Source: Myxococcota bacterium
GTDB taxonomy: Bacteria; Myxococcota_A; Polyangia; Polyangiales; Sandaracinaceae
DNA length: 64,000 nt
Reading direction: 5' to 3'
Assembly (NCBI GenBank): GCA_036149055.1
Contig: JAYZQJ010000033.1
Span: 1 to 64,000, forward strand
A program made the translations under genes and the position numbers. Shown here one piece after another: positions 48,323-63,808 of the stretch. The notes beneath the pieces were generated by a model. The model made no database searches. It saw nothing but the letters and a program-made list of their open reading frames with translations, and had not been told where the DNA came from. Position 1 is the stretch's first letter. The number at the start of each line of letters is the position of its first letter.

Positions 48323-49144
48323 GTGCGGGTCGAGACCACGCGAGGGGAGGGGGACTGGGTCTACGCGCGGGCGCGGCCGGAAGCGCTGACCCCGTGGGTG
48401 GACCATCTCTGGACGTTCCGGGGGCCGACCGCGGACCGGTTCAAGCGCGTCTTTCCGAACGGGTGTCTGGAGCTGATCGTCAGCTTCGAGGGGGCGTACC
48501 GGGTGGAGGGCTTCTCGCTGGAGGCGGCGGCGGTGAGCGGGCTCTCGGCGGGGCCGCTGGTGGTGGAGCAGCCGCCAGCGCAGGACGTGATGGCCGCGCG
48601 GCTGACGCCGGCCGGCGCCCGGGCGCTCCTCGGGGTGCCGATGGAGTCGCTCGCGCATCGGCACCTCGCCCTCGAGGACCTGATCGGCGCCTCGGCGCGA
48701 GAGCTGCGTGAGAGGGCCGCGGGGCTCGGCGTGGAGCGGCGCCTGCACGCGCTGGCCGGCTGGCTCCGCGCGCGCCTCTCGCCGCCGCCGCGGGACGCCG
48801 CGAGCTGGATGGTGGAGGCCCTGGTGGAGAGCCGCGGCTGCGCGTCGATCGAGGCGCTGCGGCTCGAGGCGGGCTTCTCCAAGCGGCGGCTGCTGGCGTC
48901 GTTCCGGGAGCGGGTGGGGCTGACGCCGAAGCGGTACGCCCGGGTGCTGCGCTTCCACCGGGCGCTGACCACGCTGCAGGGCGCCGCGCCGGGCGCGCGG
49001 CTCATCGAGGTGGCGCACGCGGCCGGCTTCTACGACCAGGCGCACATGAACGCCGAGTTCCGGGCCCTCGGCGGGCTGACCCCCTCGGCGTTCCTCGACG
49101 CGCGGCACCCGGTCGGCGACGGATCGACCGCCGCCGACCGCTGA
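48323..49144 (+). CDS. AraC family transcriptional regulator
   Basis: VGLTPKRYARVLRF...AGFYDQAHMNAEFRALGGLTP. Confidence 0.9.
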   Translation: MRVETTRGEGDWVYARARPEALTPWVDHLWTFRGPTADRFKRVFPNGCLELIVSFEGAYRVEGFSLEAAAVSGLSAGPLVVEQPPAQDVMAARLTPAGARALLGVPMESLAHRHLALEDLIGASARELRERAAGLGVERRLHALAGWLRARLSPPPRDAASWMVEALVESRGCASIEALRLEAGFSKRRLLASFRERVGLTPKRYARVLRFHRALTTLQGAAPGARLIEVAHAAGFYDQAHMNAEFRALGGLTPSAFLDARHPVGDGSTAADR

Positions 49145-49148
49145 GCTT

Positions 49149-49378
49149 GCTGGAGGGTTTGGTGCAAACCCTCCCCCCATTGGGCAAAGCGCCAATGGGG
49201 CCCCCCTCCCGACTCCGCCGGCGCCTCGCGCTGCGCGCTCGCGCCGCGAGCCCAGCGACGGGGCGCTGGGGGCCCTGCGGCTCGCGCTCGCGCGCCGCGC
49301 GAGCGGGCCGCCCCCGGCCCCGGGCACGAACCCCGGTGGTGGTGGTGGTCCGTGCGGCGACCTCGCTGCGCTCGTCCC
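49149..49378 (+). repeat. Dispersed structured intergenic element, copy B
   Basis: Hairpins GGAGGGTTTG/CAAACCCTCC and CCCCATTGG/CCAATGGGG; homologous to copies A and C. Confidence 0.85.
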
Positions 49379-49497
49379 CGCCGCCGTTTCGGGTCCGTCG
49401 ACGTGAAAGGCGGCGGTGCTGCGGCTCGACTTGCAGCAAACTGGACGGGCACGGGGCCGATGGGGCACCCCCGAGACAGACGCTCTCGGAGGCACCC

Positions 49498-49977
49498 ATG
49501 CAGATGGAACGAACCCGACTCTTCGTCGACGGCGTCCGCGCGCCGCTCAAGGCGGACGTGACCCGACGACGCGACGACGGCCTGGTGGTGTCGCAGCCCC
49601 TGCCGTTCCTGCGGCTCGACACGCCGGTGACCGAGCACGGCCGCCGGGCCCGGATCTCCCGGGTCGCGATCGCGATGGACGGAGACGTGCCGCGGCTCTT
49701 GCTCGAGCTCTCGCACGACGCCGAGCAGCCCGCGGAGCCGGCGCCCACGGGCGACGACACGCTCGTGGGGTTCACGCCCGGCGTGAGCACGCGGCCGGCG
49801 CGCACCGACGGGACGGTGCCCTACGAGTTCCAGTCGGAGCCGCCGCCTCGCCGCGAGGTCGTGCTCTCCGATCCGCCGCCGGCCCTCGCGCAGCCTCGCC
49901 CGAGCCTGGCGAGCCGCGTCTGGCAGGCCTTCGTCGGCCTCGCGCTGCTCCTGATCGGGCGCGCTCAGCCCAGCTGA
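49498..49977 (+). CDS. Small protein with C-terminal hydrophobic helix, possibly PilZ-like fold
   Basis: GGAGG RBS; beta-rich N-terminal domain, Pro-rich linker, hydrophobic tail. Confidence 0.6.
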   Translation: MQMERTRLFVDGVRAPLKADVTRRRDDGLVVSQPLPFLRLDTPVTEHGRRARISRVAIAMDGDVPRLLLELSHDAEQPAEPAPTGDDTLVGFTPGVSTRPARTDGTVPYEFQSEPPPRREVVLSDPPPALAQPRPSLASRVWQAFVGLALLLIGRAQPS

Positions 49978-52282: not shown

Positions 52283-53215
52283 GTGATGAAAACGATGCTT
52301 GGACTCTCCGATCGCCTCCTGGGGGTGATCGCCCTCTGCTCGTGCTTGCTCGGCGCGTCCGTGACCGCCGCGCAGGACGAGCCCCCCGCCGCCTCGCTGC
52401 TCCGCACCTCGACCGCCGAGGGCGTCCGAGGCGGCTTCGGCGGCGCCATCGACCGCATCGTGCGCACGCGACTCGACGCCCTCGAGGTGGTGCGCATCCG
52501 CGGCAGCGTCGCGCTCGACGTCTCCGAGGTGCAGCTCGCGCTCGGGTGCGTGGGCGAGACGCCGGAGTGCCTCGGCCAGGTCGCCCAGCAGCTCGACGTG
52601 CAGGTCCTGCTCCTGCCGAACCTGGACCGGGCGGGCGACGAGCTCATCCTGAGCGTCGCGGTCTTCCGCGCCTCCGACGGCGACCTCAGCCGGGTCGTGC
52701 GGCGGGCCAGCGGGTCGGACGCAGAGACCCAGCTCCTCGACGCGGTCGACGGGCTGCTCCGCGAGCTGTTCGGGCTCCCGCCGGCCGAAGAGGAGGAGCC
52801 GGGCCTCGAGGTCGGGCAGGGATCGGGCGAGGGGACCGCGACCCCGGTGACCCCCGCGCCTGCGGAGCCGGCGATCGCCGGGCCCGCGATCGTGCTCGGC
52901 GTCGGCGCGGCCGCGCTGATCGGCGGGATCGTGACCGGGGCGCTCTTCCTCGGCGAAGAGGAGGGCTACCGCGAGGTGCCGCAGACGCCGGCCGACGTGG
53001 CCGACCGCGACGCCCACCGCGAGAGCGCCGAGACGCTGGCGCTCACCACCAACATCCTGCTCATCGGCGGCGGCGCGGTGGCCGCGGCCGGCGTGGTCTG
53101 GCTGGCGATCGAGCTGGCCGGCGCCGGCGGCGACGGTGACACCGCGCTCGTGCCGATCCTCGGGCCCCAGACGGCCGGGCTCTCCCTCTCGGGCACGCTT
53201 CCGGAGATCCGATGA
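52283..53215 (+). CDS. Secreted or envelope protein of unknown function
   Basis: Signal peptide; C-terminal hydrophobic hairpin; ATGA overlap with the next gene. Confidence 0.75.
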   Translation: MMKTMLGLSDRLLGVIALCSCLLGASVTAAQDEPPAASLLRTSTAEGVRGGFGGAIDRIVRTRLDALEVVRIRGSVALDVSEVQLALGCVGETPECLGQVAQQLDVQVLLLPNLDRAGDELILSVAVFRASDGDLSRVVRRASGSDAETQLLDAVDGLLRELFGLPPAEEEEPGLEVGQGSGEGTATPVTPAPAEPAIAGPAIVLGVGAAALIGGIVTGALFLGEEEGYREVPQTPADVADRDAHRESAETLALTTNILLIGGGAVAAAGVVWLAIELAGAGGDGDTALVPILGPQTAGLSLSGTLPEIR

Positions 53216-55512
53216 ACCGCGCTCTCGCACTCTCGCTCTGCGCCTTCGCCCTCGGCGGCTGCTCGCTCGGCCTCGACGGCAACCCCGCCTACTGCGAGTC
53301 CGACGACGACTGCGCCGCCGGCCAGCGCTGCGAGCGCTTCGAGGGCCGCGACGACGGGCTCTGCGTGCCCGACACCGCGCCGATGGACGGCGGCCCCGAC
53401 GCGGGGCCCGACGGCGGGACCGACGGGGGCCGCTGCGTCGACGGGGCGCCCTGCTACTCGGGCCCGGACGGCACCGAGGGCGAGGGCGTCTGCGTCGCCG
53501 GCATGGTCGAGTGCCGGGACGGAGTCGCGTTCTGTCGCGACGAGGTCGTGCCGAGCGACGACGACAGCTGCGACGGCGTCGACCAGGACTGCGACGGCGC
53601 GACCGACGAGGAGGCCCCGGCGATGATGGCCTGCCCCATCTCGCAGCCCGGCGTCTGCGCAGCCGGTGAGTTCCGCTGCGTCGACGCGGAGTACCGCTGC
53701 CGCCCGATCGAGGAGGCCTCGCCCGAGACCTGCGACGGCAACGACGAGGACTGCGACGCCATCGTCGACGAGGACACCGACACCGAGTGCTACGGCATGG
53801 CCCCGGTGGGCTGCCGGCTCGAGGGAGGCCGCTTCGTCTGCACCGGCGTCTGCGCGCCCGGCCGCACCCTCTGCGAGGGCGGGACGGGGACCTGCGTCGG
53901 AGAGCGGATCCCGAGCGCGATGGACGGCTGCACGACCAGCGGCACCGCGTTCGACAACGACTGCGACGGCATGATCGACGAGGACTGCGCCGAGGCGTGC
54001 ACCGACGGCGAGACCCGCGACTGCTACACCGGGCCCTCCTCCGCCGCCGCGCGCGGTCAGTGCGCGCTGGGCTCCCAGACCTGCAGCGGCGGGGTCTTCG
54101 GCGCCTGCACCGGCTCGGTGCTGCCGACCGACGAGACCTGCGCGAACCCGGGTCAAGACGACGACTGCAACGGCGAGGTCGACGACATCGACGGCGAGGG
54201 CGAGGGCTGTGTCGACGAGATGGCGATGGGCGCGTGCCGACGCGGCGTGCTGACCTGCGTGGCCGCCGCCCTGGACTGCGTGACCCCGTCCCCGGCGCCG
54301 ATGGAGGCCTGCGACGGCCGCGACGACGACTGCGACGGCACCGTCGACGAGGGCTTCGACTTCATGGCCAGCGAGGACCACTGCGGCGGCTGCGGACTGA
54401 GCTGTGGCCCGATGCAGACCTGCTGCATGGGCACCTGCACCGACACCGAGAGCGACGAGATGGCCTGCGGCAGCTGCGGCAACGCCTGCGGCGCGGGTGA
54501 GGGCTGCTGCGACGGCGGCTGCCTCGATCTGCAGAACGACGCGATGAACTGCGGCGCGTGCGGCAACGTCTGCCCCGGCACCCAGTCGTGCTGCGGCGGC
54601 ACCTGCGTCGACACCCGGAGCGACACCGGGAACTGCGGCACCTGCGGCACCGCCTGCACGGGCGGCGACGCCTGCTGCGACGGAAGCTGCGCCGACCCGC
54701 TCAGCACCGCCTGCACGATGTGCGCGATGGACTGCATGCCGGGCCAGACCTGCTGCGCCCCCACCTGCACCGACACCTCGACCGACCCCGCGAACTGCGG
54801 CGGCTGCGGCACCGCGTGCGCGATGGGGGACGCGTGCTGCGGGAGCAGCTGCGCGGACACCGACACCGACCCGGCCAACTGCGGCACCTGCGGCACCGCC
54901 TGCAGCGGGGCGACCGACACCTGCTGCGACGGCGGCTGCGTCGACGTCGACACCGACGAGATGAACTGCGGCGGCTGCGGCGTCACCTGCGGCATGGACG
55001 AGACCTGCTGCGGCGGGGCGTGCGTCGATCTCGACGACGACGCGGCGAACTGCGGGGCGTGCGGCACGGCGTGCACCACCGGCAGCCGCACGAGCTGCAC
55101 CAACGGCGAGTGCTGCCAGCCCGGCGACACCTACTGCGCGGGCGCGGGGCGCTGCACCGACCTGGACACCGACGCCCTCAACTGCGGCGGCTGCGGAGTG
55201 ACCTGCGGGGCGGGCCAGAGCTGCTGCGGCGGCGCCTGCATCAACCCGCTCAACGACGAGCTGAACTGCGGCGGCTGCGGGGTCACCTGCGCGGCCGGCG
55301 AGACCTGCTGCGGCGGCAGCTGCGAAGATCTGCGGAGCAGCGACACCGACTGCGGCACCTGCGGCAACAGCTGCGGTGTGAACGAGGCCTGCTGCGCCTC
55401 GGCCTGCCGCAACACCCAGACCGACGAGGACTACTGCGGCGACTGCGACACGTCCTGCGGCGGCTTCCAGATCTGCTGCCGCGGCAGCTGCCAGGGCGGG
55501 CTCTGCTTGTAG
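53212..55512 (+). CDS. Cys-rich repeat lipoprotein
   Basis: Lipobox LGGC; 5 CDGxDxDCDGxxDE-type motifs; about 12 DxxNCGxCGxxC...CC repeats. Confidence 0.85.
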   Translation: MNRALALSLCAFALGGCSLGLDGNPAYCESDDDCAAGQRCERFEGRDDGLCVPDTAPMDGGPDAGPDGGTDGGRCVDGAPCYSGPDGTEGEGVCVAGMVECRDGVAFCRDEVVPSDDDSCDGVDQDCDGATDEEAPAMMACPISQPGVCAAGEFRCVDAEYRCRPIEEASPETCDGNDEDCDAIVDEDTDTECYGMAPVGCRLEGGRFVCTGVCAPGRTLCEGGTGTCVGERIPSAMDGCTTSGTAFDNDCDGMIDEDCAEACTDGETRDCYTGPSSAAARGQCALGSQTCSGGVFGACTGSVLPTDETCANPGQDDDCNGEVDDIDGEGEGCVDEMAMGACRRGVLTCVAAALDCVTPSPAPMEACDGRDDDCDGTVDEGFDFMASEDHCGGCGLSCGPMQTCCMGTCTDTESDEMACGSCGNACGAGEGCCDGGCLDLQNDAMNCGACGNVCPGTQSCCGGTCVDTRSDTGNCGTCGTACTGGDACCDGSCADPLSTACTMCAMDCMPGQTCCAPTCTDTSTDPANCGGCGTACAMGDACCGSSCADTDTDPANCGTCGTACSGATDTCCDGGCVDVDTDEMNCGGCGVTCGMDETCCGGACVDLDDDAANCGACGTACTTGSRTSCTNGECCQPGDTYCAGAGRCTDLDTDALNCGGCGVTCGAGQSCCGGACINPLNDELNCGGCGVTCAAGETCCGGSCEDLRSSDTDCGTCGNSCGVNEACCASACRNTQTDEDYCGDCDTSCGGFQICCRGSCQGGLCL

Positions 55513-55575
55513 GCAGTCCGACGAGGCAGCACCGGCGCTTCCTGCTATCCTGCGCCCATCCACGCGGTGTGGAAG

Positions 55576-57300
55576 ATGGTTGCGCGACCTACCGAGCCCG
55601 AGATGCCCACGACCGGAAGCGGTCGGGAGGCGGCGCGGCCCCCCTCGTCGGGGCCCGCCTCCACGCGCCCGGGCTCCGGCCTGGTGGGCCGGGTCGTGGC
55701 CGGCCGCTACCGCATCCTCCGGGAGATGGCCCGCGGCGGCCTGGGCCGGGTCTACGAAGCCCGCCACGTCGAGCTCGAGCGACGGGTGGCGATCAAGGTC
55801 CTCTCCGAGGAGGTCGCGCGGAACGCCGAGGCCATCAAGCGCTTCCAGCGCGAGGCGCAGACCGCGAGCCAGATCGGGCACCCGAACATCATCGACGTGC
55901 ACGACCTCGGCCGGACCGACACCGGCGCGCCGTTCCTCGCCATGGAGCTGCTCGACGGCGAGGACCTCGACGATCTGCTCGGCGCGGAGTCGAAGCTGCC
56001 CCCCGAGCGCACCCTCGAGATCCTCCGCCCGGTGGCCAGCGCGCTCGACGCGGTGCACGCGCGCGGCATCGTGCACCGCGACGTGAAGCCGGCGAACATC
56101 TTCCTCGCCCAGCGCGTCGACGGCAGCGAGGAGGTGAAGCTCCTCGACTTCGGCCTCGCCGCCTTCCAGGAGAACAGCGACCGGCTCACCCAGCTCGGCA
56201 GCGTGGTCGGCACCCCGCACTACATGCCGCCGGAGGCCGCGGAGGGAGAGCTGAGCGGACCGCAGGGCGACGTCTACTCGCTCGCCGCGGTCGCCTACGA
56301 GTGCCTCTGCGGCAAGCTGCCCTTCGACGCCGAGCAGTCGACCGGCGTGCTGGTGAAGAAGGTGGCGCGCGCGGCCCCGACGATGAGCGCCCGCACCGGC
56401 GAGGCCTACCCGCAGGCGGTGGAGGACGTGCTCGCCCGCGCCCTCGACCGGAGCCCCGCGATGCGCCAGGAGACCTGCCTGGGCTTCATCGACGCGCTCG
56501 CGGAGGCGATCGAGAAGCACTGGGGCGCGGAGCCCCTCGCCGCGCCGGCCCCGGCGCCCGACCTCGCGCCCGCCCCGGCGCCCGACATCCTCGAGTCGGG
56601 GACCTTCGAGGGGCCCCCACCCCGCAAGCCGATGGGGCGCTACGTCGCCCTCGGGCTGGTGGCGCTGCTGGCGATCGGCGGCGGCGCGTGGGCGCTCACC
56701 CCGGCGTCGACCCCGCCGACCGCCGATCCGGATCCCGAGCCGGTGGCGGAGGCCCGCCCGCCCGAGGCGACGACCGAGCCGACGACCGAGGCGACGGAGG
56801 CGGCCGAGACCACCGAGCCCACCGAGGCGCAGGCGGCCCCGGAGGGCGCGGCGACCGAGGAGGCGCCGGTCGAGGAGGCCTCCGCGCGCCCGGGTCGACG
56901 GGGGACGCGCCGCGCCGGATCGTCGACCGCGAGGGGCCGCCGTGGCTCGTCCACCGAGCAGGCCTCGTCCACCGAGCAGGCCGTGTCGGGCTCGGCGCCG
57001 ACCGTGACCGGCACCCGCGAGCCGGACCCGCCCGCCGCCGACACCGCGCGGGCCGAGCGCCTCGCCTCGCAGGCGGGCACCGAGCTCATCCGGGGGCAGG
57101 TCGCCGAGGCGGCGCGGCACGCGCGGCAGGCCACCATGGCCGATCCCGGGCACGGCCCCGGGTGGCGCATCCTCGGCATGGCCGAGGAGCGGCTCGGCCG
57201 GAACCCCGAGGCGGCCCGCGCCTACCGACGCTACCTGCGCATCGACGGCTCGTCGCCCGCGGCGGCGCAGGTCCGGCAGCGCCTCGCCGGCGTCGAGTGA
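55576..57300 (+). CDS. Membrane Ser/Thr protein kinase with C-terminal TPR-like domain, paralog 1
   Basis: VAIKVL, HRDVKPAN, DFG, GTPHYMPPE; TM helix; C-terminal AARAYRRYL. Confidence 0.93.
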   Translation: MVARPTEPEMPTTGSGREAARPPSSGPASTRPGSGLVGRVVAGRYRILREMARGGLGRVYEARHVELERRVAIKVLSEEVARNAEAIKRFQREAQTASQIGHPNIIDVHDLGRTDTGAPFLAMELLDGEDLDDLLGAESKLPPERTLEILRPVASALDAVHARGIVHRDVKPANIFLAQRVDGSEEVKLLDFGLAAFQENSDRLTQLGSVVGTPHYMPPEAAEGELSGPQGDVYSLAAVAYECLCGKLPFDAEQSTGVLVKKVARAAPTMSARTGEAYPQAVEDVLARALDRSPAMRQETCLGFIDALAEAIEKHWGAEPLAAPAPAPDLAPAPAPDILESGTFEGPPPRKPMGRYVALGLVALLAIGGGAWALTPASTPPTADPDPEPVAEARPPEATTEPTTEATEAAETTEPTEAQAAPEGAATEEAPVEEASARPGRRGTRRAGSSTARGRRGSSTEQASSTEQAVSGSAPTVTGTREPDPPAADTARAERLASQAGTELIRGQVAEAARHARQATMADPGHGPGWRILGMAEERLGRNPEAARAYRRYLRIDGSSPAAAQVRQRLAGVE

Positions 57301-57322: not shown

Positions 57323-58657
57323 CTACCTCAAGCCGTTGCGGCGGAGCAGCGAGAACAGGTAGCTGCGGTCGAGCCCGGCGTCGCGGGCGGCCTGCGAGAC
57401 GTTGCCGTCGGCGCGCCCGAGGAGGTGGTCGAGGTAGAAGCGCTCGAAGTCGCCGAGCGCGCGCTTGCGCGCCTGCTTGTAGGGCAGCGTGAGGATCGAC
57501 GCGTCGTAGGAGCTCGGCGCGGCCGGGCTCTCGGCGCCCTCCGGGACGGCCATCACGTCCACCGGCGGCAGCGCGCCGAGCGCGAGGGTCGCGTCGACGA
57601 GGTTGCGCAGCTCCCGCACGTTCCCCGGCCAGCGGTGCGACTCGAGCTCCGCCAGGTCGGCCTCGGTGAAGAGGGAGTGGATGTCGGTGTCCTCGCCGCG
57701 CTCCTCGAGGAAGTGCTCGATGAGCACCCGCACGTCGCCCTCCCGCTCGCGCAGCGCCGGCAGCTCGAGGCGGAGGACCGCGAGCCGGTAGTAGAGGTCG
57801 AGCCGGAAGTCGCCCGAGTTCACCTCCGCGCGGAGATCGCGGTTGGTCGCCGCGACGATGCGGACGTCGACCGGCACCTCGGTCTGCCCGCCGACCCGGC
57901 GGAAGCTGCGGCGCTCGAGGGCGCCGAGCAGCACCGGCTGGAGCTCGCGCGGCAGCTCGCCGATCTCGTCCAGGAAGAGGGTGCCGCCGTGGGCCTGCTC
58001 GAGCGCGCCCACCCGCTGCCGCTCGGCGCCGGTGAAGGCGCCCTTCTCGTGCCCGAAGAGCTCGCTGGCCACGAGGGTGGGCGCGAGCGCGCCGCAGTCC
58101 ACGGTGACGAAGGGCTCCTCGTTGCGCTTGCTCGACTCGTGGACCGCCCGGGCGACGAGCTCCTTGCCGGTCCCCGACTCGCCGACGAGCAGCACCGACG
58201 CGTCCGAGCGCGCGGCCCGCTTCACCCAGGCCATGACCCGGCGCATCACCGGGCTCGCCCCGACCAGCGGGCCGAGCCGATCGGTGTCGTGCACCTCGAC
58301 GTCGATGGGGTTGCCGTCGCGGACCACCAGCCGGGTCCGGCCGAGGGCCAGCGTCGTGTCGGGGGCGACGACCGCCCGCCCGAGCCGCGCCGGGCCCACG
58401 TAGGTCCCGTTCGTCGATCCCTGATCGACCACCTCGACCCCGTCGGCGGTGCGCCGGAGCTCGAGGTGATAGCGGCTGACCGTCTCGTCGCCGAGGATGA
58501 GATCGTTGCCCTGGGCGGTGCCCACCGTCAGGCGCTCGCGCTCGCCCCACACGGACCGGCCAACGTCCGTCCCCTCCGTGACGTCGACGCGCAGCGTCTG
58601 GACCGCGGCCGCGGCCTGGCTGTCGCCCCACTTTCTGGTTCGCCTGTCCGACACCAT
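57323..58657 (-). CDS. FHA-domain sigma54 enhancer-binding protein
   Basis: FHA (VSRYH, GSTNGT), GESGTGKE, GAFTGA, Fis HTH GNVSQAARDAGLDRSYL. Confidence 0.93.
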   Translation of the reverse strand: MVSDRRTRKWGDSQAAAAVQTLRVDVTEGTDVGRSVWGERERLTVGTAQGNDLILGDETVSRYHLELRRTADGVEVVDQGSTNGTYVGPARLGRAVVAPDTTLALGRTRLVVRDGNPIDVEVHDTDRLGPLVGASPVMRRVMAWVKRAARSDASVLLVGESGTGKELVARAVHESSKRNEEPFVTVDCGALAPTLVASELFGHEKGAFTGAERQRVGALEQAHGGTLFLDEIGELPRELQPVLLGALERRSFRRVGGQTEVPVDVRIVAATNRDLRAEVNSGDFRLDLYYRLAVLRLELPALREREGDVRVLIEHFLEERGEDTDIHSLFTEADLAELESHRWPGNVRELRNLVDATLALGALPPVDVMAVPEGAESPAAPSSYDASILTLPYKQARKRALGDFERFYLDHLLGRADGNVSQAARDAGLDRSYLFSLLRRNGLR

Positions 58658-58698
58658 CGCTCACATTACCTCGGATCGCGGTCAGATGGGGGAGATTG

Positions 58699-58785
58699 CT
58701 GTGGGCATACACCCCACAGATGTGGGCGGCCGCTCCCCAAGCTAGCCTTCACCGCGGCACGGTGAGCCTTCGGAACGGTGCTTGC
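58699..58785 (+). promoter_or_regulatory. Tandem 21-bp palindromic sites plus sigma54 promoter upstream of kinase 2
   Basis: CTGTGG-N9-CCACAG (58699), ATGTGG-N9-CCCCAA (58720), GGAACGGTGCTTGC (58772-58785). Confidence 0.75.
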
Positions 58786-58815
58786 CTCATATCGAGACCG
58801 AAGGGACGTGCGAAC

Positions 58816-60462
58816 ATGGTCGCGGAGGCAATGCCGATGGAACGAGAGGAGGGCGTGGATCCGCTCGTCGGCTCCGAGATCGCGGGTCGATACCGCGTCG
58901 ACCGGCGCGTCGCGTCCGGCGGCATGGGCGACGTCTACGAGGGAGAGCACATCGAGCTCGGCCGTCGTGTCGCGATCAAGGTGCTGTCACAGAGCTACTC
59001 GCGGAACGAGGAGGCCGTCGCGCGGTTCCTGCGGGAGGCGCGGTCCGCGAGCCGGATCGATCACCCCGCGATCGTCGACATCATCGATCTCGGGCGGCTC
59101 GACGCCGGCGAGCCCTACCTCGTCATGGAGCTGCTCGAGGGCGAAGATCTGGCCGACGTCATCGCCCGCGAGGCGCCGGTCCCCGCGTCTCGGGTGGTGG
59201 AGCTGCTCGAGCCGGTGGCCAGCGCGCTCGACGCCGTGCACCAGCAGGGCATCCTCCACCGCGACATCAAGCCCGCGAACATCTTCCTCTCGGTGCGCTC
59301 CGACGGAAGCGTGCGCCCCAAGCTGCTCGACTTCGGCCTCGCCGCGCTCCGGGAGGCGCCCGACGAGGAGAAGCTCACCCGCGACGGCATCGTCGTCGGC
59401 ACGCCGCACTACGTGTCGCCGGAGGCGGCGGAGGGCGAGCACGTCGACCAGCGGACCGACGTCTACTCGCTGGGTCTCGTCGCGTACGAGCTGCTCGCCG
59501 GCGGCCTGCCCTTCGACGGCGAGAAGCCGATGTCGCTGCTCTACGCGAAGGTGCGGCGCCCGGCGCCCACCCTGAGCGCCAAGACCGGCCGCACCTTCGA
59601 CTCCGACGTGGAGCGCCTGATCGGGCGCACCCTGAGCCGCACCCCGAGCAAGCGCCCGGAGACCTGCGGCGAGCTCATCGGCGAGCTGAAGCGCATCGCG
59701 GAGTCCCTCCCGGCCGACTCGACCCAGGTCGACCTCCCCGAGACGGCGCCCGCCCCGGTGGACGATCGCCCGGAGCACGAGCGGCCGATGATGCCGTCCG
59801 AGCTCGAGATCCCCGGTCACGGGATGCCGTGGAAGAAGCTCGGGCTGGCCCTCCTGCTCCTGCTCCTGCTCGGAGGCGGCCTCTACGCGCTCCGCGCCGG
59901 TGACGGCGAGGCCGAGGCGCCGACCGATGGCCCCGAGGTCGCCGACGGAGAGGAGACCGAGGCGACCGAGGAGACGGCGCCCGAGGGAGAGGCGCCCGAG
60001 CCCGCGATTCCGGAGGCGGAGGGGCTCGCCGCGCCCGAGACTCCGGTCGAGCCCGCCGCCGAGGAGCCCACGCCGGAGGCGGAGATCGCCGCCGCTCCCC
60101 CGCCCCGCCGCGGTCGCGCGCCCCGCCGGCCCGCCGCCGAGGAGACGCCGCCGCCGCAGGCGCCGGCCGCGACGCCCACCCCGCCGGTCGAGGCGGAGTC
60201 CGACCCGGAGCGCGCCGCCTCCCTCGCGCGCGAAGGCGGCACCGCGATCCTCCGGGGCCAGTTCCCGCGGGCGCGGCAGCTCTACCGCCAGGCCACCTAC
60301 GCCGACCCCAGCCACGCCGGCGCCTGGCGCGGCCTCGGGCTGGCGAGCGAGCGCATGGGCCTCGGCCCGGAGGCGGCCACCGCCTACGAGCGCTACCTGC
60401 GCCTCGCGCCCACCGCCTCGGACGCGGCCCAGGTCCGCGAGCGCCTCTCGCGCCTGCGCTGA
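58816..60462 (+). CDS. Membrane Ser/Thr protein kinase with C-terminal TPR-like domain, paralog 2
   Basis: GGMGDVY, HRDIKPAN, DFG, GTPHYVSPE; TM helix; start may be 58837. Confidence 0.93.
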   Translation: MVAEAMPMEREEGVDPLVGSEIAGRYRVDRRVASGGMGDVYEGEHIELGRRVAIKVLSQSYSRNEEAVARFLREARSASRIDHPAIVDIIDLGRLDAGEPYLVMELLEGEDLADVIAREAPVPASRVVELLEPVASALDAVHQQGILHRDIKPANIFLSVRSDGSVRPKLLDFGLAALREAPDEEKLTRDGIVVGTPHYVSPEAAEGEHVDQRTDVYSLGLVAYELLAGGLPFDGEKPMSLLYAKVRRPAPTLSAKTGRTFDSDVERLIGRTLSRTPSKRPETCGELIGELKRIAESLPADSTQVDLPETAPAPVDDRPEHERPMMPSELEIPGHGMPWKKLGLALLLLLLLGGGLYALRAGDGEAEAPTDGPEVADGEETEATEETAPEGEAPEPAIPEAEGLAAPETPVEPAAEEPTPEAEIAAAPPPRRGRAPRRPAAEETPPPQAPAATPTPPVEAESDPERAASLAREGGTAILRGQFPRARQLYRQATYADPSHAGAWRGLGLASERMGLGPEAATAYERYLRLAPTASDAAQVRERLSRLR

Positions 60463-60481
60463 TCTCGAACGGATCGCCCAC

Positions 60482-60515
60482 CGAACGCCCGCGGCCCCCC
60501 AGCCGCGGGCGTTCG
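60482..60515 (+). terminator. Hairpin downstream of kinase 2
   Basis: CGAACGCCCGCGGC/GCCGCGGGCGTTCG inverted repeat. Confidence 0.6.
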
Positions 60516-60545
60516 TGCGTCTGTCCCTGGATCGGGTGTCGGAGC

Positions 60546-60642
60546 CTATGGTCGAGCCGACCACAGCTGTGGGGTGGGATCCCATAGGTGCCGCCCTCCG
60601 GCGCGCGAAAACGGGGCGGCGCGGAGTGGGAACGGTGTTTGC
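60546..60642 (+). promoter_or_regulatory. Tandem 21-bp palindromic sites plus sigma54 promoter upstream of the Ig-like lipoprotein
   Basis: CTATGG-N9-CCACAG (60546), CTGTGG-N9-CCATAG (60567), GGAACGGTGTTTGC (60629-60642). Confidence 0.75.
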
Positions 60643-60694
60643 GAACCATCGGCCCGAGTGTCGGACCCTGGGATGCGCTGGGAGGACTAGAACG

Positions 60695-62914
60695 ATGAGA
60701 CTCGGATCCCGACTTACTTGGACTGGTGTCGCGCTCGCCGCGCTCGTCTGCGTGGGCTGCGATGGCGGAGACGCCCCGGCCGCGCCGAGCGTCGACGCGC
60801 TGCCCGAGGTGACCAACCAGAACCCGCTGACCGTGACCGGCAGCGCCGAGTCCGGCGCGCTGGTCCAGATCCGCGTCGGCTCGGGGAGCCCCACCGAGGG
60901 CACCGCCGGCGACGACGGCGCCTTCTCGATCGACGTGACGCTGAACGCCGAGGTGGAGAACACCTTGCTCGTGTCGCAGACGGTCGGCGGCGTCGAGAGC
61001 GAGGCCACCATGGTGACCGTCACCCACGACGGCACCCCGCCCAACGCGCCGCAGCTCGACCCGATCGTCACCCCGACGCGCCGCTCGATGCAGCGCCTCC
61101 GGGGCCAGTCCGAGGCGGGCGCGACCATCACCGTCACCGGCGGGACCGAGGACGCCGAGGCCACCGCCGACGCGGACGGCCGCTTCGAGGTGACCGTCTC
61201 GCTCGCGACCAGCGACACGATGGCCGTCGACAACGCCATCGCCGTCGTCGCCACCGACGTGGCGGGCAACGAGGGCCCGGCGACCGACGTCACGATCGTC
61301 TACGACCCGACCCTCCCGCTCGAGGCGCCGGTGCTCGACGACTTCCCGGGCTTCACCAACAGCGCCACGATCACCCTCACCGGTGAGGCGGAGGCGGGCG
61401 TCGGGATCAGCGCGGTCGGCGCGGGCACCGACGGCATGACGACCGTCGGCGACGACGGCACGTTCTCGGTCGAGATCGGCCTGCGCCCGAACCAGCGCAA
61501 CGAGGTGCTGCTCTTCGCCGTCGCCGGCGGCGAGACGAGCGCGGCCGCGAGCGCGGTCATCGTGCACGACGACGTGGCGCCCAACGCGCCGAGCCTCGAC
61601 CCGCAGGCGTCGCCCACCGGCGCGGAGACCATCCGCATGACCGGCGAGGCCGAGCCCGGCGCGACCGTCGACGTCACCGGCGGCATGGCCGACGCGAGCG
61701 GCGCCGCCGACGACGAGGGCTTCTTCTCGGTCGACGTGATGCTGAACCTCGACACCGACAACACGCTCAGCGTGACGGCGACCGACCCGGCGGGGAACGC
61801 GAGTGACCCGACCGAGCTGATGATCACGCAGGACAGCAGCCTCGAGGAGCCGGTCATCGTCGACCCGGTCAGCTCGCCGACGAGCGACCCGACCGTGACC
61901 CTCACCGGGCGCGCCCAGGCGGACAGCGCCATCGAGATCACCGGCGGCGCGGACACCGTCAGCGCGATGAGCGACGCGAGCGGTGACTGGACGGCGATGG
62001 TCACCCTGCGGGCCAACACCCGCAACGAGCTGCGCATCACCCGCCCCGGCAGCGGCGTCGACACCATCGTCACCATCGAGCACGACGACGTGGCGCCGAT
62101 GGCCCCGGAGCTGAACGACCTCGCGAGCCCGACCGGGAACACGACGATCGACGTCACCGGCACCTCCGAGCCCCGCGCGCGCATCAGCGTCAGCGGCGGC
62201 GTGATGCCGGCGAGCGGCACCGCGGGCATGGACGGCCGATTCAGCGTGCCCACCCAGATCGCCGAGGACAGCGAGACGACCCTGAGCGTCATCGCCACCG
62301 ACCGCGCGGGCAACTCGAGCGCGCCGAGCATGGCGACCGTGACCCACTCCAGCTCGACGCCCCCGGCGCCGCGCGTGGACCAGGCCAACCCGGCGCCGAC
62401 CAACATGCCGACCCACGTCGTCACCGGTCGCGTCGAGATGCCCGGCGCGGGGATCGAGATCGTGATCCGCGGCGGCATGGCCGAGGCGACCGGCCCGACC
62501 GACCCGAGCAGCGGCACCTTCTCGGTCGAGGTCACCCTCAACCCGAACACCGAGAACACCCTCATGGTGGTCTCCCGCGAGGGCTCCATCGAGAGCCCGG
62601 CGACCCCGGTCACCATCACCCACGACGACATCGCGCCCGCGACGCCGAACGCCTCGAACATCACGGCGTCGGCCGGGGGCTGCGTGCTCGGCGTCCCCAC
62701 CGGCGGGAACGTCTCGGGCATGATGATGAGCGTCGAGGCGCGCTCGACGGTCCGCGTCGAGAACGTCACCCGGAGCACCAGCGCGACGTCGACCGCGACC
62801 GACGCCGGCTCCTTCAACGTGTCCCTCGGGGCGTGCAACGGAGACGTCATGCGCGTCACCGCCAGCGACGCCGCGGGGAACACCAGCGACTTCGTGGAGG
62901 TCAACGCGAGTTGA
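60695..62914 (+). CDS. Lipoprotein with about 8 bacterial Ig-like repeats (adhesin-like)
   Basis: GGAGG RBS; lipobox CVGC; repeated TGxAExGAT...ATDxAGN units. Confidence 0.85.
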   Translation: MRLGSRLTWTGVALAALVCVGCDGGDAPAAPSVDALPEVTNQNPLTVTGSAESGALVQIRVGSGSPTEGTAGDDGAFSIDVTLNAEVENTLLVSQTVGGVESEATMVTVTHDGTPPNAPQLDPIVTPTRRSMQRLRGQSEAGATITVTGGTEDAEATADADGRFEVTVSLATSDTMAVDNAIAVVATDVAGNEGPATDVTIVYDPTLPLEAPVLDDFPGFTNSATITLTGEAEAGVGISAVGAGTDGMTTVGDDGTFSVEIGLRPNQRNEVLLFAVAGGETSAAASAVIVHDDVAPNAPSLDPQASPTGAETIRMTGEAEPGATVDVTGGMADASGAADDEGFFSVDVMLNLDTDNTLSVTATDPAGNASDPTELMITQDSSLEEPVIVDPVSSPTSDPTVTLTGRAQADSAIEITGGADTVSAMSDASGDWTAMVTLRANTRNELRITRPGSGVDTIVTIEHDDVAPMAPELNDLASPTGNTTIDVTGTSEPRARISVSGGVMPASGTAGMDGRFSVPTQIAEDSETTLSVIATDRAGNSSAPSMATVTHSSSTPPAPRVDQANPAPTNMPTHVVTGRVEMPGAGIEIVIRGGMAEATGPTDPSSGTFSVEVTLNPNTENTLMVVSREGSIESPATPVTITHDDIAPATPNASNITASAGGCVLGVPTGGNVSGMMMSVEARSTVRVENVTRSTSATSTATDAGSFNVSLGACNGDVMRVTASDAAGNTSDFVEVNAS

Positions 62915-63038: not shown

Positions 63039-63049
63039 ACTAAATTCTG

Positions 63050-63320
63050 GCTGGAGGGTTTGATGCAAACCCTCCCCCCATGGGGCGAAGCGCCCATGGG
63101 GCCCCCCTCCCGACTCCGTCGGGACGTCGCGCTTCGCGCTCGTTCCGCGACCCCAGCGCGGGGCGCTGGGGGCCCTGCGGCTCGCGCTCGCGCTTCGCGC
63201 TCGCTGGCCGCCTTGTCCGGGTGGCGCCCCACTCGCGCTTCGCGCTCGCTGGCCGCCTTGTCCGCCCGCGCTTCGCGCTCGCTGGCCGCCTTGTCCGGGT
63301 GGCGCGCCGGCCCCTCCCGA
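63050..63320 (+). repeat. Dispersed structured intergenic element, copy C, with an internal 31-bp triplication
   Basis: Homologous to copy B; CGCGCTTCGCGCTCGCTGGCCGCCTTGTCCG at 63189, 63234 and 63267. Confidence 0.85.
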
Positions 63321-63482
63321 CGCCTCCTCCCGAACCGATCGCAGGCTGGTGAGCGGGGACGATCCTATTCGTTTCATCGATCTCCGCCGGGCTGGGGGCG
63401 AATTCGACGCCCTCGTGGTCAACGCAGATCAGGGGAGGAAGGAGGCGGGAGGCGAGGAGGAATAGCTAGGCCCGCTCTCGGC

Positions 63483-63685
63483 CCGCTGCCGCTGCCGGCC
63501 TCGCTGCCGCCACCGCTGCCGGTCTCGCTGCCGCTACCGCTGCCGGTCTCGCTGCCGCTACCGCTGCCGGTCTCGCTGCCGCTGCCGGACTCGCTGCCGC
63601 TGCCGGCTTCGCTGCCGCTGCCGGTCTCGCTGCCGCTGCCGCTGCCGGCTTCGCTGCCGCTGCCGGTCTCGCTGCCGCTGCCACT
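63483..63685. repeat. Hexamer-periodic tandem repeat (CCGCTG/CCGGTC/TCGCTG)
   Basis: Directly visible, about 200 bp. Confidence 0.85.
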
Positions 63686-63808
63686 AAACGATCCCATTCG
63701 TTCATCGAGCAGCGGCGGCGACTCGGCGGGTCAGCTCGTGTTCGAACCGGCGGGGAGAGTCCTCGAAAGGCACTTGGATGATGGCGAAGGTTGGCCATAT
63801 TGAACCCC

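What the first reader, a model, noticed from the sequence alone, without database searches (positions are those of the whole stretch)
57323..62914. Sigma54 regulon readable in the DNA: FHA activator, twin promoters and helically phased tandem operators
Seen: kinase 2 and the Ig-repeat lipoprotein are each preceded by a near-identical -24/-12 element (GGAACGGTGCTTGC at 58772, GGAACGGTGTTTGC at 60629). Each also has two abutting 21-bp palindromes of consensus CTGTGG-N9-CCACAG (58699/58720 and 60546/60567). The gaps to the GG are 31 and 41 bp, a difference of one helical turn. The first site pair lies about 40 bp upstream of the divergent FHA-EBP start. Known: sigma54 EBPs bind tandem palindromic sites and FHA domains bind phosphothreonine. 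Inference: the FHA-EBP binds these sites, autoregulates, and induces both a kinase (feedback) and a surface Ig protein. I do not recognise this motif from any described regulon.
Basis: partly seen in the sequence, partly recalled or inferred. Interest (0 to 1): 0.85.

Follow-up and report, generated by a model that had tools for sequence, protein, structure and literature searches.

The report
Kinase-linked sigma-54 regulon with threonine switch
A marine myxobacterium carries a conserved, helically spaced DNA code in front of a membrane kinase and surface-protein genes that is likely read by the neighbouring FHA-type sigma-54 activator, and this activator family shares a threonine in a flexible tail that is predicted to be the kinase-controlled switch.

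Summary
Both promoters and the four sites are at the stated coordinates (site 58720 is weak) and are the only such pairs in the 9.9-Mb genome. The motif, refined to STGTGGG-N7-CCCACAS, precedes a sigma54 element at the activator locus in all 17 family genomes carrying this activator clade (one weak). It follows relocated targets and sits at background level in 14 family genomes without the clade. Site-to-promoter gaps cluster at about 31, 41 and 51 bp (R=0.80), confirming helical phasing. Three further targets outside the window are conserved in the sister species. Autoregulation is plausible, not universal.

Correction: the FHA lacks the first phosphate-binding arginine, as in nearly all FHA activators examined. 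Instead they share one threonine at a fixed distance in a flexible N-terminal tail (54/61, 41/41, 66/94), as in GarA/OdhI. Best model: a kinase phosphorylates this tail, switching the activator, which induces surface proteins and a kinase. Binding, start sites and phosphorylation are untested. The scan noted similar kinase-FHA-activator modules twice on other DNA, without this motif or tail in the lines shown.

The parts
52283..53215 (+). Membrane protein with CsgG/LpoB-like domain (P310), first gene of the P310-Stig1-kinase 1 operon
   Evidence: ORF; no Pfam hit; Atlas look-alikes CsgG/LpoB, a lead only. The operon carries site + sigma54 element in G004, G006, G008, G015, G017 and G037 but not here.
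53212..55512 (+). Cys-rich Stig1-repeat lipoprotein-like protein
   Evidence: PF04885, 6 stretches; next to P310 in several relatives
55603..57300 (+). Kinase 1: membrane Ser/Thr kinase with C-terminal TPR, convergent on the activator
   Evidence: PF00069 + TPR; VAIK, HRD, DFG, GTPHY motifs and one TM segment; start
57323..58657 (-). FHA-AAA+-HTH sigma54 activator, 444 aa, GAFTGA intact
   Evidence: PF00498 + PF00158; model pLDDT 93; AAA+ domain matches NtrC/PspF/FleQ family
57338..57400 (-). Helix-turn-helix, recognition helix LDRSYLFSLL, shared by the clade that co-occurs with the motif
58517..58522 (-). FHA G46-T47: Thr in place of the canonical G-R arginine
   Evidence: alignment to GarA/OdhI; G-R in 1/102, 0/96 and 5/126 relatives
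58637..58639 (-). Thr7 codon: conserved threonine in the flexible N-terminal tail, predicted phospho-acceptor
   Evidence: residues 1-10 mean pLDDT 55, no secondary structure to residue 15
58663..58668 (-). TAATGT -10-like hexamer 5 nt before the activator start (predicted leaderless sigma70-type promoter)
   Evidence: TAnnnT 5-8 nt before the start in 12 of 16 orthologues; 368 vs 56 control in 3827 upstream regions
58699..58719 (.). Strong palindromic site, distal to the kinase 2 promoter
   Evidence: 19.5 bits; conserved in G001, G005, G010, G018
58720..58740 (.). Weak abutting site
   Evidence: 3 mismatches; 5.9 bits
58772..58785 (+). Sigma54 -24/-12 element for kinase 2; predicted start about 58797
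   Evidence: 12.8 bits on the genome-derived sigma54 matrix
58816..60462 (+). Kinase 2: membrane Ser/Thr kinase with C-terminal TPR
   Evidence: relocated best-hit homologues in G008 and G017 keep site + promoter
60483..60514 (+). 13-bp GC-rich inverted repeat after kinase 2, likely terminator separating it from the Ig promoter
   Evidence: read directly from the sequence; not folded or tested
60546..60566 (.). Palindromic site, distal to the Ig promoter
   Evidence: 12.6 bits
60567..60587 (.). Palindromic site, proximal to the Ig promoter
   Evidence: 20.4 bits; site + promoter upstream of 9 of 10 Ig orthologues
60629..60642 (+). Sigma54 -24/-12 element for the Ig gene; predicted start about 60654
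60695..62914 (+). Ig-repeat (Big_6) lipoprotein, 739 aa
   Evidence: PF17936, 5 stretches; orthologues in 9 of 31 other family genomes

Best explanation
The FHA activator likely binds the paired 21-bp palindromes as two dimers and, from sites held on one face of the helix, would switch on sigma54 promoters for kinase 2, the Ig lipoprotein and a few other surface proteins; it is predicted to be switched when a neighbouring membrane kinase phosphorylates Thr7 in its own flexible tail. Shown: the sites, the promoters, their conservation with this activator clade, the 31/41/51-bp spacing, the conserved tail threonine and the lost FHA arginine. Inferred: direct binding (about 0.85); phosphorylation of Thr7 (about 0.6); the phosphorylated tail contacting an FHA domain of the same or the adjacent subunit and so controlling AAA+ assembly (about 0.45); feedback through the induced kinase; weak self-repression where the distal site lies next to the activator's -35 region. 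The signal is unknown. The kinase TPR ectodomain and the P310/Stig1 proteins point to a cell-surface cue.
For: Ig orthologues: site + GG-N10-GC in 9 of 10. The exception, G019, is from another family, had no activator match at 1e-120 (70% complete) and has no site or sigma54 element there. In G004, G006, G012 and G015 the activator is directly divergent from the Ig gene and shares the sites. A 14-row clade (SH-aLRT 93, quick tree) shares helix LDRSY[LF]F[ST]LL; G010, G012 and G037 have the same helix. All 17 carry site + sigma54 element at the activator locus or a neighbouring operon, G040 only weakly. Composite pattern: 20 hits away from the activator/Ig/P310 loci against 4 reversed-pattern controls in these 17 genomes; 4 against 4 in 14 genomes without the clade; 15 against 25 in 220 genomes of other families. 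Phasing: 39 rows in 16 genomes, R=0.80 at 10.5 bp, 0 of 20,000 simulations. Tail Thr: 54 of 61, 41 of 41 and 66 of 94, above every shuffle. GarA/OdhI are the best solved sequence matches of the FHA and work by self-binding of a tail phosphothreonine (PMC5448819, passages). rpoN and an IHF-like gene are in the genome.
Against: No binding, start-site or phosphorylation data. RNA contigs were inconclusive. Assigning a site to the neighbouring activator can fail: in Desulfovibrio only one of two co-located activators bound (PMC4641369). The genome has over 60 activator-like ORFs and 146 kinase-motif proteins, so the kinase link rests on gene neighbourhood and the regulon. The lost G-R arginine argues against canonical phosphothreonine binding (PMC3162421). 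The model does not place the tail confidently. Two of five testable distal targets lack the site in orthologues. The training sites were first found with a matrix seeded on the window's own four sites, so the matrix ranking is not fully independent. Related genomes are not independent samples.
Confidence: 0.7

Rival explanations
1. Same regulon, classical input: the FHA docks on a phosphothreonine of the autophosphorylated kinase, and the tail threonine is structural or only a docking motif.
For: S61, H64, N83 and G84 are invariant and R62 is in 95 of 99 aligned proteins. Both kinases have activation-loop and juxtamembrane threonines. FHA docking on kinase phosphosites is known for PknG-OdhI/GarA (PMC8546545).
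Against: The first arginine is lost specifically in the activators, whereas 28 of 30 non-activator FHA domains of this genome keep G-R (after moving four mis-binned activators). The tail is predicted flexible. Docking and tail phosphorylation are not exclusive: GarA does both.
Confidence: 0.3
2. The sites are bound by a different activator or transcription factor encoded elsewhere, and the FHA activator is only a neighbour.
For: Many other sigma54 activators are present. One good site + promoter occurs in G031, where the clade was not found (86% complete, 1370 contigs).
Against: The motif stays with the activator locus through five different gene arrangements in 17 of 17 genomes. It is at background level in 14 family genomes without the clade. 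Paralogues with other recognition helices lack it upstream.
Confidence: 0.1
3. The repeats are chance or a relic of a duplicated promoter with no present function.
For: Single sites are not enriched under the plain consensus. The two -24/-12 elements are nearly identical, which suggests duplication.
Against: Half-sites are conserved across genera while spacers diverge. 7 of the 12 strongest sites are non-coding in a genome that is 8% non-coding. Spacing is quantised.
Confidence: 0.02

Closest known systems
FHA-domain enhancer-binding proteins of Myxococcus xanthus (Jelsbak, Givskov and Kaiser 2005; MXAN4899, Nla18)
   Same: FHA-AAA+-HTH architecture next to Ser/Thr kinases. I saw only the title in reference lists; the kinase link and the membership of Nla18 are recalled. 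MXAN4899 binds promoter fragments (PMC7910581, passage).
   Different: No binding motif, regulon or activating phosphosite for an FHA activator turned up in 10 literature searches. I could not read the 2005 paper, which may mention the lost arginine. Orthology to a named M. xanthus protein was not tested.
Characterised myxobacterial sigma54 regulons: NmpR (GCGCA-N5-TGCGC) and Nla28 (CT(C/G)CG(C/G)AG repeats)
   Same: Paired sites upstream of -24/-12, small regulons, a site near the activator's own operon (PMC11841059; PMC7910581; passages)
   Different: Different sequence. The sites mostly abut (21-bp repeat) rather than lying 14-15 bp apart. The input is FHA/Ser-Thr kinase rather than receiver/His kinase. 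The proximal site ends 30-52 bp from the -24, closer than the 80-150 bp quoted as typical.
Desulfovibrio activator motifs TGT-N9/11/12-ACA (PMC4641369, passages)
   Same: TGT...ACA half-site class, divergent activator gene, regulons of 1-4 operons, found by the same footprinting logic
   Different: Here TGT-N13-ACA with an invariant inner G-C pair, in tandem
GarA / OdhI of actinobacteria
   Same: Unstructured N-terminal extension with a phosphorylatable Thr ahead of an FHA domain (PMC5448819); best solved sequence matches of this FHA
   Different: GarA keeps the G-R arginine, has an ETTS motif and is a stand-alone enzyme regulator. Here the FHA lacks that arginine, there is no ETTS, and it is fused to an AAA+ activator. 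Self-binding is untested.

Membership tests
Sigma54 enhancer-binding protein | AAA+ domain with GAFTGA loop | tested here: met
   PF00158 E 4.7e-68; GAFTGA; fold matches NtrC/PspF/FleQ
Sigma54 enhancer-binding protein | C-terminal HTH | tested here: met
   Helices 420-427 and 431-440 in the model; PF02954 on several close homologues, though not on this protein
Sigma54 enhancer-binding protein | Binds palindromic sites upstream of a -24/-12 promoter and activates it | not testable with these tools
   Co-conservation only
Sigma54 promoter | GG-N10-GC matching the genome's consensus, with rpoN present | tested here: met
   Learned consensus TGGCACG-N4-TTGCT; 12.8 and 10.7 bits; RpoN-box protein at C249
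Sigma54 promoter | Transcription start about 12 nt after the GC | tested here: inconclusive
   Only assembled contigs were available. Three RNA contigs begin at 60664, 60690 and 60714, but one spans the Ig promoter and one spans the divergent region.
Canonical phosphothreonine-binding FHA | G-R dipeptide after strand 3 | tested here: not met
   G46-T47; definition from PMC3162421
Canonical phosphothreonine-binding FHA | S-x-x-H and N-G motifs | tested here: met
   S61-R-Y-H64 and N83-G84; S, H, N and G invariant in 99 of 99
GarA/OdhI-type tail switch | Conserved Thr in a flexible N-terminal extension before the FHA | tested here: met
GarA/OdhI-type tail switch | ETTS motif | tested here: not met
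   The tail reads RRTRKW; across relatives +1 is often V and +2 often P
GarA/OdhI-type tail switch | The Thr is phosphorylated and binds the protein's own FHA | not testable with these tools
Active Hanks-type membrane kinase (kinases 1 and 2) | VAIK lysine, HRD, DFG and a transmembrane segment | tested here: met

The most novel reading that the evidence does not exclude
Myxobacterial FHA-type sigma54 activators are one-protein phospho-switches. A cognate membrane Ser/Thr kinase phosphorylates a single threonine in the activator's own tail, and a remodelled, arginine-less FHA pocket reads it in cis or from the neighbouring subunit to control AAA+ ring assembly. This would be a Ser/Thr counterpart of the receiver-domain aspartate, used by a large activator family. 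This locus supplies the first predicted operator and regulon with which to assay it.
Probability: 0.45. Interest if true: 0.82.

Novelty: new variant of a known kind. Interest (0 to 1): 0.62.

Why it matters
How Ser/Thr kinases control sigma54 activators with FHA domains is, to my knowledge (recalled, and not contradicted by 10 searches), still unresolved; no operator or phosphosite for such an activator was found in the library. This locus gives both halves of an assay. One is a defined operator-promoter cassette whose natural variants step in whole helical turns. The other is a single candidate phospho-acceptor shared by activators down to 50%-identity representatives. One T-to-A change would test the mechanism in any myxobacterium. 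The regulon itself (rapidly exchanged surface proteins plus a kinase) is a new member of a known kind.

Tried and rejected
RNA evidence: only contigs were available, some up to 29-54 kb in RNA libraries, so DNA carry-over is likely; no conclusion on starts or expression. First genome scan dropped the window's own promoters because its sigma54 filter was over-fitted; it was redone. A T-x-x-aromatic tail motif, suggested by five orthologues, does not hold family-wide (+3 is H, L, R, Q, Y and others); only the Thr is kept. An IHF-like AT tract at a fixed place in the spacers: no clear position. Distal candidates not supported by orthologues: C155 and C160 (site absent in 1 of 1 and 3 of 3 orthologues) and the C41 astacin gene (no clear orthologue). 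The phylum search scored only 18 candidates per genome and cannot show absence. The careful tree did not finish; the quick tree is used. Look-up by place in earlier findings returned nothing. PMC549468, PMC3429621 and PMC1426557 were not held.
Full report
Observation. In the 9.9-Mb, 73% GC genome these are the only two pairs with at most 4 mismatches in total at spacings of 19-44 bp. Single sites are no commoner than with other spacer lengths, so pairing and position are the signal. Pfam confirms an FHA + sigma54 activator, two kinases with TPR tails, a Big_6 repeat protein and a Stig1 repeat protein. The closest named homologue records are Sandaracinaceae, and the DNA occurs in marine samples.

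Footprinting. The Ig gene has orthologues in 10 other genomes of 30 searched and in 9 of 31 within the family. Nine of the 10 have the site and a GG-N10-GC element upstream. The exception, G019, belongs to another family, gave no activator match at 1e-120 (70% complete) and has neither site nor sigma54 element there. In four genomes the activator is directly divergent from the Ig gene. From 26 sites of 14 promoters outside this genus the motif is STGTGGG-N7-CCCACAS, with an invariant inner G and C. That matrix ranks the two window promoters first and second of 656 sigma54-like elements (32.9 and 25.4; best of 12 shuffled matrices 21.9). Those training sites were first located with a matrix seeded on the window's sites, so this ranking is a consistency check, not an independent test.

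Which protein. A quick maximum-likelihood tree of 51 FHA activators gives a 14-row clade (SH-aLRT 93) sharing the recognition helix LDRSY[LF]F[ST]LL. G010, G012 and G037, which are frameshifted or cut by contig ends and were left out of the tree, have the same helix. All 17 genomes have a site and a sigma54 element at the activator locus or a neighbouring operon, in different arrangements: before kinase 2, before the Ig gene, before a Cys-rich lipoprotein that is divergent or upstream in line, or before the P310-Stig1 operon. G040 is weak at the locus (7.8 bits) but has a strong hit elsewhere. Paralogues with other helices show no pair upstream. A composite site-promoter pattern gave 32 hits in these 17 genomes, 20 of them away from the activator, Ig and P310 loci, against 4 reversed-pattern controls; in 14 family genomes where the clade was not found it gave 4 against 4. 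A stricter pattern gave 20 hits against 1 control in the family and 15 against 25 in 220 genomes of other families. Related genomes are not independent, and incomplete genomes may hide the clade: G031 has one good hit without it.

Phasing. A rescan without any phase assumption (gaps 22-60 allowed) gave 39 site-promoter rows in 16 genomes: 9 at 30-32 bp, 20 at 38-43, 9 at 50-52 and 1 at 56; R=0.80 at 10.5 bp, reached by 0 of 20,000 simulations. Two promoters at 44 and 49 bp fell under that scan's sigma54 cut-off. They are in an earlier set of 22 (R=0.76, p=5e-5; 14 values after collapsing kin, p=1.5e-4). In this genome, 7 of 8 non-window candidates lie within 1.5 bp of 31+10.5k, against 43% of control hits (p=0.013). 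The site centres fall at about -67/-88 and -77/-98 from the predicted starts, closer than the 80-150 bp quoted as typical (PMC7910581, passage). Dependence of sigma54 promoters on helical phase is known (PMC13682980, passages); what is shown here is that natural variants of one regulon keep it.

Regulon. Beyond the window, 14 site-promoter rows were found against a control mean of 5.1 (maximum 10 of 30 shuffles). Three targets keep the site in the sister species: a 473-aa lipoprotein (C9), an OmpA/TSP3 protein (C73) and a 100-aa lipoprotein (C83). Two do not (C155, C160), and an astacin lipoprotein (C41) has no clear orthologue. Most targets look exported, but 26% of genes behind strong sigma54-like elements here have a lipobox-like start anyway (49 of 190), and I did not test the enrichment formally. 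A kinase is a recurrent target. Kinase 2 is behind the sites in five genomes. Kinases whose best hit here is kinase 2 have moved elsewhere in G008 and G017 and kept site and promoter at 41 and 42 bp. The P310-Stig1 operon, which usually ends in kinase 1, carries them in six genomes but not in this one.

Autoregulation. A TAnnnT hexamer 5-8 nt before the activator start in 12 of 16 orthologues suggests a leaderless sigma70-type promoter. The nearest site edge is 13-51 bp upstream of the start in 11 of 16, 156 bp in one and absent in four. Self-repression is therefore plausible here (41 bp) but not a fixed feature.

The FHA and its tail. The FHA's best solved sequence matches are GarA and OdhI, and the alignment shows G-T where they have G-R. 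G-R, S-x-x-H and N-G are the three motifs described as crucial for phosphothreonine binding (PMC3162421, passages). G-R is kept in 1 of 102, 0 of 96 and 5 of 126 parsed FHA activators from three searches, but in 30 of 34 assignable FHA domains that my script binned as non-activators in this genome, or 28 of 30 after moving four mis-binned activators. The second arginine (S-R) is kept in 98 of 102. The same proteins carry a threonine 19-22 residues before a fixed anchor, in an otherwise variable tail. It is present in 54 of 61 dereplicated sequences with a long enough tail (97 of 102 parsed; best-window shuffle maximum 42 of 5000). With the window fixed beforehand it is present in 41 of 41 new sequences (of 98 given; shuffle maximum 26) and in 66 of 94 representatives at 50% identity (of 148 given; maximum 49). 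A window widened to 18-24 after seeing the data gives 91 of 94 (maximum 67). The last two sets were chosen with a profile that includes this column, a small bias. In the second set serine never stood in for it. The model leaves residues 1-15 without secondary structure, with pLDDT 55 over residues 1-10. In GarA, phosphorylation of a threonine in an unstructured N-terminal extension leads to self-binding by the FHA and switches the protein (PMC5448819, passages), and the FHA also docks on kinase phosphosites (PMC8546545, passages). I infer a related switch here. Phosphorylation, self-binding and the direction of the effect are all untested, and the lost arginine could equally mean a non-phosphate ligand.

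Literature. Ten searches found no binding motif, regulon or phosphosite for an FHA-type sigma54 activator, and no sigma54 regulon in this family. I read passages only, no whole texts and no supplements; the supplements of PMC4641369 list further motifs that I did not see. Passages of PMC2887360, PMC4880591, PMC2875238, PMC11980068 and PMC12288465 added nothing on mechanism. The founding paper (Jelsbak et al. 2005) was not held, so I cannot exclude that it notes the arginine or the tail. Known myxobacterial motifs differ (NmpR; Nla28).

Verdict. The regulon is real, phased and very probably read by the adjacent activator; by itself it is a new member of a known kind. The family-wide pairing of a tail threonine with an arginine-less FHA makes the whole a new variant and gives a one-mutation test of how these activators are switched. 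Interest 0.62.

Noticed in passing
window 52283-57300; L066, L070, L072, L073, L078, L079: A CsgG/LpoB-like membrane protein, a Stig1-repeat protein and a TPR-tailed membrane kinase recur together in several relatives. In G019 they lie beside the Ig gene with an ECF-like sigma gene (judged from its N-terminal sequence only) instead of the FHA activator, as if the same sensor block had a different output.
   Followed up: partly
G000 genome-wide: TAnnnT 4-8 nt before predicted starts in 368 of 3827 upstream regions against 56 at a control distance: leaderless transcripts look common in this organism.
   Followed up: partly
L032, L033, L034, L035, L036, L037, L047, L049: Many paralogous FHA activators with other recognition helices (MDRSHL, MDRTYL) are divergent from a gene for a membrane sensor-like protein across a short spacer with no sigma54 element; their operators remain to be found.
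   Followed up: no
L080 (G018:C274) and L220 (G010:C7): In both genomes of genus g10 a site and a sigma54 element precede a globin-coupled-sensor-like signalling gene (annotation from the sequence, not scanned), a possible second conserved target there.
   Followed up: partly
L125 (G000:C240:3635-6019), L126 (C149), L127 (C228), L124 (C198): Weaker in-phase single sites (9-13 bits; gaps 41, 41, 32, 52) precede a VgrG-like gene, a PP2C-like phosphatase, a pilin-like gene and a PAS-GGDEF-EAL gene; not tested in orthologues.
   Followed up: partly
L068 8945-8990, L285, L118: In G003, G041 and the G000 C9 promoter the strong site is followed by a shorter palindrome (GTGGGG-AT-CCCAC-like) rather than a second 21-bp site.
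   Followed up: no
window 63044-63330 and 48900-49250: A repeated intergenic element with GCTTCGCGCTCG units occurs at both places and drew very high depth in read laying; it looks like a multicopy REP-type repeat.
   Followed up: no
window 63490-63690: Low-complexity tandem array of GCTGCC-based units, also seen in G001 near L066:5477; not examined.
   Followed up: no
window 49416-49805; L087: A short gene is kept just upstream of the module in G000, G001 and G005; separately, a PilZ-like gene in G010 has a site pair and a sigma54 element at 52 bp.
   Followed up: no
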